A model generated the notes under the pieces. It saw only the letters and a list, made by a program, of their open reading frames with translations, had not been told where the DNA came from and made no database searches. DNA of 64,000 nt from an uncultured Gammaproteobacteria bacterium (GTDB lineage Bacteria; Pseudomonadota; Gammaproteobacteria; UBA9214). Made by a program: the position numbers and the translations under genes. Positions 54,651 to 57,568 of this stretch are shown one piece after another (the stretch's first letter is position 1; every line of letters starts with the position of its first letter). Location of the stretch: NCBI GenBank assembly GCA_963773065.1, contig CAVYZN010000032.1, positions 192,001-256,000 of the forward strand, given 5' to 3'.

Positions 54651-54678
54651 CCGCAAAGACGCAAAGGACGCAGAGAAA
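54651..54678 (+). repeat. Left 28-bp inverted repeat bounding the C-depleted tract
   Basis: CCGCAAAGACGCAAAGGACGCAGAGAAA; 27/28 match to the reverse complement of 57541-57568. Confidence 0.92.
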
Positions 54679-54843
54679 GACATTATAAGGATTATAATCC
54701 TTATATTGAAGTATAGATATGTAGTTTTGTTGATGTTGAGGGTATTAGGTTACGCGAATATTTAAAAAATGTAGAAAAAGTTTGATATGAAATTGATTTG
54801 GAGGTGTGTGTTGTTGTTGGTGTTGTTTTTAGAGAGAGTAAGT

Positions 54844-56100
54844 GGTGACTGAAGGGTTTGTTAGGATATTTTATGTTGTTGTGTTTAAGTTTGTTTGTTG
54901 TTTGGAATGGATTTTTTTTTGTTGGTTGTTTTATTACGCTATGTAGGATGTTTGTTGAATTTTTGATGGTTGTATGTTTAATTTGGAAGGTTGGGTTATT
55001 AGTGTTATGGGGTTATTAGTTGTGAGGTGTATTGGATATTTATTATAAGTTGATAGAGTGAGAGTAGGTATGGTGTTGATTTGTTTGTGTGTTTGTTGTA
55101 ATTGGTGTAAGTGGTGTTTTTGAATGAATTGGTGAATTGATTATAGATGATATGTTGGTTTTGTGTTGTGTGAAGTAGGATTTGGTTTAGTATAAATATG
55201 ATATAGTTATAAGGTTAATAGGTTTATTTTTTTGTATAGTTAGTGTTGGGTTATGTTGGTATTGGTGTGTGTGTTAGGTTGGGTTTGGTGTTGATGATAT
55301 TGATTTGTTTTTGGTTGATAGAAGAATTGGGTTTATGTGGTAAGTTTTGGGTGGTGAGGTAATTGATAGATTTGATTAGGGGGTATGTTAAGGAGGTGTG
55401 TTTGTTGATAGATGTATGTTTTATGTGTTAGAGTTTGATTTTGTTTTTGTTAGAATAGTAGGTGTGTATTATAGGGTAGGTGTGTTGGGATATGGTGTTG
55501 TTTTTGTTGTTGGATCGAGAAATTAGGTGTTGAAACGTAAATAAGAGTAGTGGATAGATGTGTTTATGTTGGATATGTTGTTTGTGTAGGAGATAGTTTT
55601 GATGTTGTATGGTAAGATGTAGTGGGTGAGGTTGTGTTTGTTTATGTTGTGTTGTGATTTTTGAAGGGGGTGTTGGTGTGAGTGTTGTGTTGTGAGATGT
55701 GTTAGGATGATAATATTTGGTGTGTTTGTGATTGATTTTGGTGATTGAGATAGTATTGTTGGTTTTAGTTGTGGTGGATATTATGTTGAGTGTTGGGGTA
55801 TTGAGTTGTTGTTTTATATTTGAAGTGATGGTGGGGATTGATGAATTGTGTTAGTTATAGAAGGTGTATTGGAATTGTGGATGAGGTTAGTTAATGGTGT
55901 ATGTTTTGGTGTAATTGTTGTTTTGAAGTTGTGGGAATTTTTTGTTGATGGATTGTATTTGGTGTAGAGAGTGTTGATTATGGTTGGATTTTTTGGTTAG
56001 TGATGTGTATTAATTTATGGATTTGTGTGTGTGATGTTTGTAATTTGAAGTGGGGAATTTTGTGATGTTTTTTTTGTTAGGATAAGTGTTTGTAGTGTTG
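54844..56100 (+). pseudogene. IS701/IS4-superfamily DDE transposase, C>T hypermutated
   Basis: Reverting T>C by eye gives HWTTYYKLIER, IDDTLVLR, HSHKANRPTFLHSQCWVTLA, LLIDAWFM, IIGQVRRDTALF, RWGIEPLFH.LKRWWG; CAG/CGA codons now read TAG/TGA; ends approximate. Confidence 0.8.
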
Positions 56101-56203
56101 AAGTATGTGGTATGTGTTTGTGGTTTTGAATGTGTTTTTTATGTTTGTGTGTTGTTAGTATGGATAATTTAGGGTGGTAGGTAATGTTGTGTGTTAAATT
56201 TTA

Positions 56204-56243
56204 TTTTTTTTTTTTTTTTTTTTTTTTTTTTTTTTTTTTTTTT
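56204..56243 (+). repeat. 40-nt poly-T run
   Basis: Direct count; lies between the two decayed IS. Confidence 0.9.
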
Positions 56244-56249
56244 ATTTTT

Positions 56250-57537
56250 GGTTTTTTTGTTTTTTGAGTGTGTTATTGTGTTATTGTGTGTTGAGTTTGT
56301 AGAAGTTGAGTTTGTTGTTGATTAGGTTTATTATTTATGTATGTGTTGTATTGATGTATTGTGTGTTTTGTGTTTGGTGTATTGGTATATTTTGTTTATT
56401 GTTTTTAGGATTTTATTGGTTTGATGTGTTGTGTTTAAGTTATGATGTTTTAGATATGTTTGTGTATTAGTTTGGTATTTTTTTTATGTGTTTGATTTTG
56501 TAGTGTTGATATTGTATATTATTGTTAGAGTATGTTGTTGATTATGTTTATTGTTTGTGATAGAGTATTGTGTATTGTTTATGTTATATTTGTTTGGTGT
56601 TTTGTTTTGTGTTGAGTTTGTTGAGTATGTTGTTGATTTTTGTGTGGTGTTGTGTTGAGAGTTTTGTATTGTGTATTATTTTTTAGTGTATTTTTTGAGG
56701 TTGGTGTGTTTTTTTGTTAGATGTGTGTGTTTGTTTAGGTTTTTGTAGTTGTGTGTGATTATATGTTTTTTGTTGAAGTTGATTTGGTTAGGAAGATTTT
56801 GTTGTATTTTTTGATGAAGGTTGTTGATATGTTGATGTTTATTGAGTTGATGGTATTTATGTTGGTATTATGTGTTTGTAGATTTTTGTTGAGTTGTTGT
56901 ATGTTTGGTTTTATGTTTTTTGTTGATGTATAGTATGTGTGTTGTTTGTTGTTGTTGTTTAGGTTGATATATTTGTGGTTGTGTGTTTGTGAGTTTTTGT
57001 TGATGTTTAGGTGTGTGATTTTGTAGAAGTTGTTTTTGTTTAGTGTGAGATTGATATATCGTTGTAATTGTTGTTATTTGATGTTAGTTTTCGTTGTTGA
57101 GATGTGTTATTGTTGTTAATGGTATTTCGTGTGTTTATATTAGTATTAGTGTTTTATAGAGTAGTGTGTAGTTTGAGAGTTTTTTGTTTTAGTTTGTTTT
57201 GATTTGGTGTATTGCGTTATTAGGTATTTTTATGTGTGTTATGTGTATTTTTAGGTAGTATTTGTGTTGGTAGATATTGAGTTGTTGATAACGTTTGTTT
57301 ATTGTATCGTGTATTGGATGGATGTTAGTCTCATTAGTTACATCGAATTGGTTGTTAGTAGTGAAGTTGATGTTTATGTTTAGAGTTTTTGTTGTCGCGT
57401 CTAAGTCAACGTATGTTACATGTTACGTCTCGGTAATGCTTAGGGTTGTTTCAAAAAGTTTCTCGTTCATCGTGATCTTATCGATTATCAGTAGGTGCGT
57501 TTAGAATACGTCTAGCCACTCAGATTTCAAAAGAGTC
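56250..57537 (-). mobile_element. ISL3 family element, hypermutated (G>A on its coding strand)
   Basis: Minus-strand end GACTCTTTTGAAATCTGAGTGG resembles ISL3 GGCTCTTTTG; other end GGTTTTTTTGTTTTTTGAGTG; 1288 bp; 8-bp flanks TTATTTTT / TAATTTCT. Confidence 0.85.
56280..57470 (-). pseudogene. ISL3 transposase pseudogene
   Basis: Literal MNEKLFETTLSITET*HVTYVDLDATTKTLNININF...HPIHDT..KRYQQLN is consistent with LFEAALGI..W.V..VDLDAAAKTL.I.IDF..GSRF...HPVHDT..KRYR; TGG>TAA; C-terminus resembles GKLDF.KLN. Confidence 0.85.
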
Positions 57538-57540
57538 TAA

Positions 57541-57568
57541 TTTCTCTGCGTTCTTTGCGTCTTTGCGG
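57541..57568 (-). repeat. Right 28-bp inverted repeat bounding the C-depleted tract
   Basis: TTTCTCTGCGTTCTTTGCGTCTTTGCGG. Confidence 0.92.

What the first reader, a model, noticed from the sequence alone, without database searches (positions are those of the whole stretch)
54651..57568. 28-bp inverted repeats made of 9-nt subunits mark the edges of the converted tract
Seen: left CCGCAAAGACGCAAAGGACGCAGAGAAA and right TTTCTCTGCGTTCTTTGCGTCTTTGCGG match 27/28. The one mismatch (57552) reads as a + strand C>T relative to the left copy. Each arm is about three copies of ACGCA(A/G)AG(G/A) and keeps its C's although adjacent DNA has lost them, as expected if arms were paired or protein-bound while the loop was exposed. 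Related repeats occur at 46176/46383 and as a half-site near 51330-51352. From memory, such repeats often flank GxxExxY (PD-(D/E)XK-like) genes; I cannot verify that and none is in this window.
Basis: partly seen in the sequence, partly recalled or inferred. Interest (0 to 1): 0.8.

Follow-up and report, generated by a model that had tools for sequence, protein, structure and literature searches.

The report
Repeat-element arms around two garbled insertion sequences
The two 28-base inverted repeats are the ordinary ends of a common hairpin-forming repeat element into whose loop two jumping genes inserted, and the cytosine-free stretch between them is most likely a sequencing or assembly error, not a biological conversion that the repeats delimit.

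Summary
The inverted repeat is real: 54651-54678 and 57541-57568 match 27/28. It is one copy of a genome-wide REP/MITE-like family. The 19-nt arm pattern has 122 hits here against 0 for the reversed control. The same arms flank both GxxExxY (PF13366) loci in this genome. Similar arms flank 42-44 of 69 GxxExxY loci from many phyla, against 0 of 69 in a shuffled control.

The 2862-nt "converted tract" is two insertion sequences (a DDE_5 type and an ISL3 type) that landed in the element's ~70-nt loop. Their other copies in the genome are 99.2-100% identical to each other and unconverted.

The arms are not the edge of the conversion:
- It starts at the first base of the left IS, 27 nt inside the arm.
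- It fades 150-500 nt before the right arm.
- Seven other long-spaced arm pairs show no skew.

The tract also carries 87 deletion events against 2 insertions, context-fixed miscalls, and a collapse to 40 T at its centre. Six other collapsed-alphabet tracts occur elsewhere in the assembly, and neighbouring genes are frameshifted.

Most likely this is one badly read long molecule kept in a metagenome contig (about 70%). True strand-specific hypermutation is not excluded (about 10-15%).

The parts
54647..54678 (+). Left arm of the repeat element. It has the outer TTCA, then three 8-nt subunits with one spacer base (arm proper 54651-54678).
54679..54705 (.). Unconverted left part of the element's loop. 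It includes the perfect palindrome TATAAGGATTATAATCCTTATA (54684-54705), and all 3 C are kept.
54706..56204 (+). Garbled copy of IS 'A'. Its parents are C17:165179-166757 and C16:2612-4171, which encode a 425-aa DDE_5/DDE_Tnp_1 transposase on this strand. The first base (C of CTGAAG) already reads T.
56205..56241 (.). Remainder of the loop between the two IS copies, read as pure T. It is part of a 40-T run at 56204-56243.
56242..56249 (.). Left copy of the 8-nt target duplication of IS 'B'. It reads TTATTTTT, against the intact right copy TAATTTCT.
56250..57537 (-). Garbled copy of IS 'B'. Its parents are C22:61043-62369 and C14:39419-40741, among others, which encode a 409-aa ISL3 transposase on the opposite strand. 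C retention rises from 57000 onward.
57538..57545 (.). Right copy of the IS 'B' target duplication (TAATTTCT). It is intact and overlaps the inner 5 nt of the right arm.
57541..57568 (-). Right arm of the repeat element. The outer TGAA expected from the family is missing, and the arm abuts mid-bioF sequence directly.
54358..54630 (+). bioF 3' end, copy 1. It is part of the complete bioF gene (53440-54618).
57569..57840 (+). bioF 3' end, copy 2. It has 12 mismatches and no indel against copy 1, and it starts at the non-homologous junction with the right arm.
57846..57862 (-). Remnant right arm (TGCGTCTCTGCAGTGAA) in the spacer before bioH. It sits at the position where congeners carry a whole element.

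Best explanation
The two 28-nt repeats are the terminal arms of one copy of a lineage-amplified, hairpin-forming REP/MITE-like element. The arm module is TCACC + (R)CGCARAG subunits. The element sits in its usual place between bioF and bioH. The same arm module flanks GxxExxY (PD-(D/E)XK_3) genes, so the gene-less copies are most likely non-autonomous relatives of that cassette, with the arms acting as its recognition or hairpin module (inferred).

Two active insertion sequences, a DDE_5/IS701-like 'A' and an ISL3 'B', inserted into the element's ~70-nt loop (shown by exact termini and a target duplication). The C-free tract is exactly those two IS copies plus the loop remnant between them. 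That is why the arms sit near its edges: they are the landing pad, not a shield.

The conversion itself is most likely not heritable sequence. It is probably a single poorly base-called or damaged long read that became the contig backbone for an insertion most reads lacked, and so was never polished (inferred).
For: Family membership:
- 113 arms match the 28-mer at <=6 mismatches.
- There are 32 pairs <=90 nt and 24 pairs of 91-200 nt.
- Natural copies fold into hairpins of -40 to -68 kcal/mol under RNA parameters.
- The 19-nt pattern occurs in all 4 congeners (17-294 hits) and in 14 of 24 same-family genomes, with the control at 0.
- Elements with different loops lie between bioF and bioH in 3 of 4 congeners. 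The site is empty in the fourth.

GxxExxY link: 2 of 2 loci in this genome; 42-44 of 69 loci elsewhere, against 0 of 69 in the control.

The tract is two IS copies:
- A C>T-collapsed BLAST matches tract 27-1525 to C16/C17 and tract 1567-2861 to C22/C14/C27.
- The parent copies are 99.2-100% identical to each other.
- IS A also sits in the loop of the C16:2534-4262 pair, with the empty paralogue at C6:5279-5417.

Technical origin:
- Fate of parental bases in A: C gives T 367, A 23, C 7, G 6, deleted 26 (of 429).
- Fate of parental bases in B: G>T 71 of 418 and A>T 23 of 250.
- There are 59+28 deletion events against 1+1 insertions, mostly in pyrimidine runs of only 2-5 nt.
- The miscalls depend on context. 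ATCGA>ATAGA in 8 of 9 and CTCGA in 3 of 3, but TTCGA in 0 of 5.
- In B, GGN>GTN in 43 of 78 but CGN in 0 of 85; in A, GGN>T in 10 of 136. A>T occurs only within AA.
- All bases collapse to T for 40 nt at the A/B junction, and the error profile changes there.
- The same assembly holds 6 other collapsed-alphabet tracts, none within 3.3 kb of an arm. They include a poly-A of 175, blocks of G~87 and A~140, purine-only runs of 230-580 nt, and a poly-G/T of 300.
- bioH, bioC, apbE and coxB in this window are each split by frameshifts. The bioH break is one extra G relative to a congener.
- The genome is a 33-contig bin with 6.3% contamination.
- Passages in two assembler papers say that single erroneous long reads and zero-coverage regions are a main error source in long-read metagenome assemblies.
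Against: - No reads could be examined, so the single-read origin is inferred.
- The left onset coincides with the IS terminus to within 5 nt. A pure signal artefact does not predict this unless most reads lack the insertion.
- C>T at ~90% with G, A and T largely kept, CpG-biased retention of C (22 of 44 kept C are CpG), and a smooth recovery gradient all look enzyme-like or chemistry-like.
- I know of no documented base-caller failure with exactly this spectrum. My one literature search on such artefacts turned up none.
- That the GxxExxY protein acts on the arms is untested.
Confidence: 0.65

Rival explanations
1. Real, heritable, strand-specific hypermutation of the IS pair, unrelated to the arms. 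One route is cytosine deamination of an exposed + strand. Another is synthesis of that strand under dCTP starvation or dUTP/dTTP excess during transposition-linked repair, with A-rule bypass adding N>T changes and -1 deletions.
For: - About 90% of parental C read T on one strand only.
- The onset is exactly at the IS A terminus.
- There is a gradient and a CpG bias in retained C.
- Non-directional divergence is <=1.4%.
- The fates of C in A (T 86%, A 5%, deleted 6%) resemble abasic-site bypass. That comparison is recalled, not tested.
Against: - Thirty-seven loop bases are all T.
- The miscalls are context-deterministic, and their rules switch at the poly-T.
- Deletions hit 18-33% of pyrimidine runs of 2-5 nt.
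- The same assembly has unrelated homopolymer and purine-only tracts that no deaminase explains.
- The 8 other copies of the two IS are untouched.
- No DddA-like, YwqJ or APOBEC_N gene was found in a bin that is 91% complete.
Confidence: 0.13
2. The arms paired as a stem or were protein-bound, leaving the 2.9-kb spacer as an exposed single-stranded loop that was deaminated. On this model the arms define the converted domain.
For: The arms do bracket the tract and keep all 14 of their C. Natural copies of the family form strong hairpins.
Against: - The 27 loop bases next to the left arm are unconverted, and their palindrome is intact.
- Conversion fades 150-500 nt before the right arm.
- Seven other long-spaced pairs have |GC skew| <= 0.21, including one holding the same IS.
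- The arm mismatch lies at the family's variable position.
- No deaminase or HUH gene is linked to the arms.
Confidence: 0.03
3. Mis-join without a garbled read. On this reading the locus is a chimera of two strains or of unrelated molecules, and the tract comes from foreign, chemically converted DNA.
For: - The right arm meets mid-bioF at a non-homologous junction.
- A 272-nt duplicate is 4.4% diverged with no indels.
- Contamination is 6.3%.
Against: - IS B's target duplication spans the arm, and IS A's terminus meets the loop precisely. The IS copies were therefore truly inserted in this element.
- Bisulfite-type conversion gives no deletions, G>T changes or poly-T.
- The tract's parents are this genome's own IS copies.
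Confidence: 0.06

Closest known systems
REP/BIME repeats and their RAYT (TnpA-REP) transposases (recalled from the literature, not read here)
   Same: Both are short G+C-rich palindromic intergenic repeats present in tens to hundreds of copies per genome. Both form hairpins, vary in copy number between close relatives, and serve as preferred targets of some insertion sequences. IS1397/ISKpn1 and IS110-type elements in REP loops are recalled examples. Here IS A sits in arm-pair loops in 2 of 3 full copies.
   Different: These arms are arrays of 8-nt subunits. The linked gene is a PD-(D/E)XK (GxxExxY) protein, not an HUH Y1 transposase. The 10 Y1_Tnp hits all lie >=7.3 kb from any arm.
MITEs (miniature inverted-repeat transposable elements)
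   Same: Both are non-coding, 80-150 nt long, have terminal inverted repeats, and occur as many near-identical copies. The short class here has a conserved loop and an outer second inverted repeat. A gene-bearing relative shares the same ends.
   Different: No transposase is known for this family, target duplications are not established, and the loops of the long class are unrelated to each other.
Intervening-sequence cassettes carrying small ORFs (23S rRNA IVS / four-helix-bundle protein, TIGR02436); the architecture is recalled
   Same: A small ORF lies between long inverted arrays of short tandem subunits. In this genome the TIGR02436 gene at C6:32364-32669 lies between inverted heptamer arrays.
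   Different: The subunit sequence and the cargo differ. The copy studied here has no cargo gene and is not in an rRNA gene.
RIP in fungi, APOBEC editing of retroelements, and bisulfite conversion (recalled)
   Same: All give near-complete C>T over kilobases of repeated or mobile DNA.
   Different: This tract is one-stranded, unlike RIP. It also has 87 deletion events, G>T and A>T changes, ATCGA>ATAGA and a poly-T collapse. The other IS copies are untouched.
Large single-read errors and zero-coverage regions in long-read metagenome assemblies (myloasm preprint 10.1101/2025.09.05.674543 and nanoMDBG PMC13087279; passages seen)
   Same: Both show a localised stretch of raw-read quality inside an otherwise clean contig, low-complexity collapses, chimeric-looking junctions, and frameshifted genes nearby.
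   Different: Those passages do not describe a near-complete one-base substitution. No reads were available to show zero coverage here.

Membership tests
TCACC-(RCGCARAG)n arm family (REP/MITE-like, GxxExxY-associated) | The arm is built of tandem 8-nt RCGCARAG subunits with an outer TCACC | tested here: met
   The left arm is TTCA-CCGCAAAG-ACGCAAAG-G-ACGCAGAG. The right arm has the same subunits but lacks the outer TGAA.
TCACC-(RCGCARAG)n arm family (REP/MITE-like, GxxExxY-associated) | Two arms in inverted orientation around a short loop | tested here: met
   After subtracting the two IS copies, the loop is about 27+37+8 nt. That is within the spread of spacers in the 24 long-class pairs.
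TCACC-(RCGCARAG)n arm family (REP/MITE-like, GxxExxY-associated) | Many dispersed copies, far above chance | tested here: met
   122 hits against 0 for the control. 199 arms against 35 in the shuffle.
TCACC-(RCGCARAG)n arm family (REP/MITE-like, GxxExxY-associated) | The same arms flank GxxExxY/PF13366 genes | tested here: met
   2 of 2 loci in this genome. 42-44 of 69 loci in other genomes, against 0 of 69 in the control; 11 of 80 loci were dropped for short flanks.
TCACC-(RCGCARAG)n arm family (REP/MITE-like, GxxExxY-associated) | The GxxExxY protein binds or cleaves the arms (the presumed mechanism) | not testable with these tools
   No solved relative was found by sequence. No nucleic-acid docking tool is available.
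Classical REP/RAYT system | The repeats flank an HUH Y1 (RAYT) gene | tested here: not met
   There are 10 Y1_Tnp hits. The nearest arm is 7391 nt away.
IS200/IS605-type single-strand transposon ends | Sub-terminal hairpins with a TnpA (Y1) gene inside the element | tested here: not met
   The tract holds DDE_5 and ISL3 transposase genes only.
Deaminase-type hypermutated tract (RIP/APOBEC-like) | The changes are essentially only C>T (or G>A) transitions | tested here: not met
   G>T 71 of 418 and A>T 23 of 250 in B. C>A 23 of 429 in A. There are 87 deletion events and 37 loop bases that are all T.
Deaminase-type hypermutated tract (RIP/APOBEC-like) | A polynucleotide deaminase is encoded in the genome | tested here: inconclusive
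   There are no DddA-like, YwqJ or APOBEC_N hits. For DddA-like the control genomes did not ring either. The MafB19-deam hits belong to a model that rings in 12 of 14 control genomes. The bin is 91% complete.
Deaminase-type hypermutated tract (RIP/APOBEC-like) | Other copies of the repeated element are also affected | tested here: not met
   The 3 other IS A copies and 5 other IS B copies are 99.2-100% identical to the reference copies. This is the only large C-free tract in 3.84 Mb.

The most novel reading that the evidence does not exclude
The tract is true chromosomal sequence. On this reading, two freshly inserted IS copies nested in a hairpin element had one strand almost completely converted (C>U, with abasic-site bypass giving N>T and -1 deletions). 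That would be a bacterial counterpart of RIP or APOBEC-type inactivation of mobile DNA, or the footprint of DNA synthesis under dCTP depletion.
Probability: 0.12. Interest if true: 0.9.

Novelty: new member of a known kind. Interest (0 to 1): 0.3.

Why it matters
As filed, the finding does not hold. The arms do not delimit a conversion process, and the conversion is probably not biology. That should stop a striking-looking tract from being read as a bacterial hypermutation system without read-level proof.

Two things are worth keeping:

1. The arm module is a real, cross-phylum partner of GxxExxY/PF13366 genes, whose function is listed as unknown (passage in PMC3424549). In searches for GxxExxY, PDDEXK_3, PF13366 and TIGR04256 I found no paper describing these repeats. 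I saw only search listings, plus matched passages from two papers. This gives a concrete handle, a conserved DNA partner, for testing what this nuclease-like family does.

2. The assembly shows a recognisable signature of single-read garbling: reduced-alphabet tracts, a deletion bias, and frameshifts nearby. That signature could be used to screen other windows of the scan.

Tried and rejected
- Exact-sequence cluster look-up of tract ORFs and control proteins could not be made because the database was switched off.
- Exact 39-40-nt patterns from the tract and from the arm/bioF junction had 0 matches in metagenome contigs. This is uninformative.
- A BLAST of the tract against 40 relatives found only two short chance-level hits outside G000.
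- Rfam at E<=1 on two arm-bearing loci gave 0 matches.
- A PDB sequence search with the GxxExxY protein gave 0 matches.
- A two-letter-alphabet BLAST meant to find parents of the purine-only tracts timed out and was dropped.
- A C>T-collapsed BLAST of the C15 and C5 tracts found no parent.
- Converted pUC19/lambda-type spike-in DNA was considered and rejected, because the parents are this genome's own IS copies.
- Uniform CpG methylation protecting C was considered and rejected, because before 57000 only 5 of 247 CpG cytosines are kept.
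Full report
**Observation.** The repeat is as described. The arms lie at 54651-54678 and 57541-57568, are 28 nt long with 27 complementary positions, and are 2862 nt apart. Between them the + strand is almost free of C, with GC skew of 0.99-1.00 over 55001-57000. It is the only kilobase-scale tract of this kind in the 3.84-Mb, 33-contig genome.

**What the arms are.** The arm is a module: an outer TCACC, then 8-nt subunits (CCGCAAAG, ACGCAAAG, one spacer base, ACGCAGAG).
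- The 28-mer has 113 matches at <=6 mismatches in the genome.
- A 16-nt core has 199 matches at <=3 mismatches, against 35 in a shuffled genome.
- A 19-nt degenerate pattern has 59+63 hits, against 0 for its reversed control.
- Arms mostly occur as convergent pairs: 32 pairs span <=90 nt, 24 span 91-200 nt, 7 span 200-6000 nt and 7 more span >5000 nt.
- The short class is a conserved ~78-nt unit inside a second, outer inverted repeat. The long class has unrelated loops.
- Natural copies fold into hairpins of -40 to -68 kcal/mol under RNA parameters.
- The pattern is abundant in all 4 congeners (17-294 hits). It occurs in 14 of 24 genomes of the family and in 1 of 16 genomes sampled from other families of the class.

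**Link to GxxExxY.**
- The genome has two TIGR04256 loci. C10:14748-15098 is intact (139 aa, PF13366, E 8e-43). C9:44868-45148 is broken. Both lie between arm pairs.
- Of 80 relatives' loci fetched from public genomes, 69 had both flanks and 11 were dropped for short flanks. In 44 of the 69 the gene is bracketed by an inverted repeat of >=16 nt.
- A second implementation gives 42 of 69. Of these, 38 have at least two CRCARAG-like subunits. A shuffled flank gives 0 of 69.
- These loci come from Planctomycetota, Chloroflexota, Acidobacteriota, Bacteroidota, Pseudomonadota and other phyla.
- I found no description of this in print. 'GxxExxY' occurs in 3 papers, and one passage I saw is irrelevant. 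PF13366 is listed as 'unknown' in the PD-(D/E)XK survey PMC3424549 (passage seen). TIGR04256 occurs in no paper.

**Where this copy sits.** In the congeners the bioF-bioH spacer is empty in G004 and holds an arm-pair element in G001, G002 and G003, each with a different loop. The element here is therefore at an orthologous, long-standing site.

**What the tract is.**
- Collapsing C to T in both query and genome shows two of the genome's own insertion sequences in tandem. Tract positions 27-1525 match C16:2603-4170 and C17:165175-166756. Positions 1567-2861 match C22 (two copies), C14 and C27.
- IS A encodes a 425-aa DDE_5/DDE_Tnp_1 transposase on the + strand. IS B encodes a 409-aa ISL3 transposase on the - strand.
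- The unconverted copies are 99.2-100% identical to each other.
- IS A starts at 54706, exactly at its CTGAAG terminus.
- IS B ends at 57537. It is followed by TAATTTCT, which overlaps the right arm. The matching left copy at 56242-56249 reads TTATTTTT.
- Both IS copies were therefore truly inserted in this element's loop, which comes to about 27+37+8 nt.
- IS A also sits in the loop of the arm pair at C16:2534-4262. The uninterrupted paralogue of that pair is C6:5279-5417, with target duplication ACATAGGTAA. So 2 of 3 full IS A copies lie in such loops.

**The arms are not the boundary of conversion.**
- On the left, 27 loop bases keep all three C and form a perfect 22-nt palindrome. One-strand C>T would have broken that palindrome. 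The first converted base is the first base of IS A.
- On the right, retained C rises from 7 of 647 before 57000 to 37 of 179 after it, and 25 of 39 are kept in the last 140 nt.
- The arm mismatch at 57552 lies at arm position 17, which varies freely in the family: A 65, T 42, G 33, C 5 of 145 arms.
The seven other pairs spaced 200-6000 nt have |GC skew| <= 0.21, against 0.89 here.

**What the conversion is.** Against its parents, the tract shows more than C>T.
- In A, parental C reads T 367, A 23, C 7, G 6 and deleted 26 (of 429).
- In B, G>T is 71 of 418 and A>T is 23 of 250. T is essentially unchanged.
- There are 59+28 deletion events against 1+1 insertions. In A, 18-33% of pyrimidine runs of only 2-5 nt have lost a base.
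- The odd substitutions are fixed by local context. ATCGA>ATAGA occurs in 8 of 9 cases, CTCGA in 3 of 3, TTCGA in 0 of 5 and GTCGA in 1 of 7.
- In B, the second G of GG becomes T in 43 of 78 cases, while G after C never does (0 of 85). In A the GG rule barely applies (10 of 136). A>T occurs only in AA.
- At the A/B junction every base reads T for 40 nt, and the error rules switch there.
- Non-directional divergence is <=1.4%.

This looks like one low-quality read rendered through a drifting decoder, not like a mutational spectrum.

**The rest of the assembly supports that reading.** It holds the following tracts:
- a 175-nt poly-A (C33);
- blocks C6/A19/G~87/A~140/T16 (C13);
- a ~300-nt poly-G/T (C5);
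- purine-only runs of ~230-580 nt (C28, C15, C19);
- graded transitions from normal sequence, to loss of one base, to a two-letter alphabet (C15, C28).

None of these lies within 3.3 kb of an arm. In this window bioH, bioC, apbE and coxB are each split into two frames, and the argS frame matches only profile positions 4-80 of 349 of its catalytic domain. The bioH break is one extra G relative to G004. The bin has 6.3% contamination. Passages in two assembler papers state that erroneous long reads and zero-coverage regions are a main source of errors in long-read metagenome assemblies.

**A second oddity at the right arm.** The arm lacks its outer TGAA and abuts bioF codon ~305. A 272-nt second copy of the bioF 3' end follows, with 12 mismatches and no indel against copy 1. 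After it comes a remnant arm where the congeners have a whole element. This reads like two haplotypes joined through one aberrant read, but an in-vivo duplication is not excluded.

**What remains open.** No reads could be examined. The sharp left onset at an IS terminus, the CpG bias of retained C and the smooth recovery are what a real enzymatic or chemical process would give. The artefact reading explains the onset only if most reads lack the insertion, so that polishing stopped at its edges. That the GxxExxY protein acts on the arms is inference from co-occurrence only.

**Verdict.** The repeat is real and ordinary in kind. It is a member of a REP/MITE-like family, and its cross-phylum tie to GxxExxY genes is worth a note of its own. 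Its apparent role as the edge of a converted domain is a by-product of two IS insertions into its loop, and the conversion is probably not in the organism's DNA.

Noticed in passing
G000 C5:107126-107425; C13:10926-11200; C15:11376-12100; C19:73790-74368; C28:78100-78590; C33:95251-95425: Six other tracts use a collapsed alphabet. They are poly-G/T, homopolymer blocks (G~87, A~140), a C-free run passing into a purine-only run, purine-only runs, and a poly-A of 175. Several have graded edges. None lies near an arm.
   Followed up: partly
G000 C19:73776-74377: A ~584-nt purine-only tract sits inside a gene, between two copies of TCCAGGGCC. Leaving out the tract and one repeat copy gives an open frame of 433 aa. 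It looks like an insertion whose sequence was garbled.
   Followed up: partly
window 54358-54630 and 57569-57840; remnant arm 57846-57862: The bioF 3' end is duplicated on either side of the element, with 12 mismatches and no indel. The second copy starts at a non-homologous junction with the right arm. A remnant arm precedes bioH.
   Followed up: partly
window 57905-58706 (bioH), 58651-59587 (bioC), 29069-30273 (apbE), 60996-62128 (coxB), 17853-19001 (argS): Each of these genes is split into two frames or truncated. This points to indel errors in the assembly, not to real pseudogenes.
   Followed up: partly
L107-L110 (congeners G001-G004) and window 54610-54650, 57830-57905: The bioF-bioH spacer is empty in G004 (GATTGATCGATG). 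Elsewhere it holds an inserted segment bounded by GATTGAT-like direct repeats, and the arm-pair elements inside have quite different loops.
   Followed up: partly
G000 C6:32256-32795: The one TIGR02436 (four-helix-bundle) gene lies between inverted arrays of a different subunit (AAGTGAG/CTTCTCA-type heptamers). Perfect (CTTCTCA)n arrays of 3-24 units occur at 8 places. So a small gene between inverted arrays of short tandem units seems to be a general layout.
   Followed up: partly
G000 short-class copies, e.g. C26:5940-6107: The ~78-nt short-class arm pair is nested inside a second conserved inverted repeat (TAGTGTNCATCCATAAAC ... TTTATGGATGNACACTA). The full unit is therefore about 150 nt.
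   Followed up: no
G000 C17:165150-166790: The C17 copy of IS A is flanked by a 29-nt direct repeat (TATTTAGAGTTCGC[A/G]TTAAAATTGGTTAA), against 10 nt at C16. That is an unusually long and variable duplication for a DDE element.
   Followed up: no
G000 C11:252661-253963: A partial IS A copy (C11:252799-253809) lies between two Y1_Tnp (HUH) matches. This suggests it interrupted an IS200/IS605-type gene.
   Followed up: no
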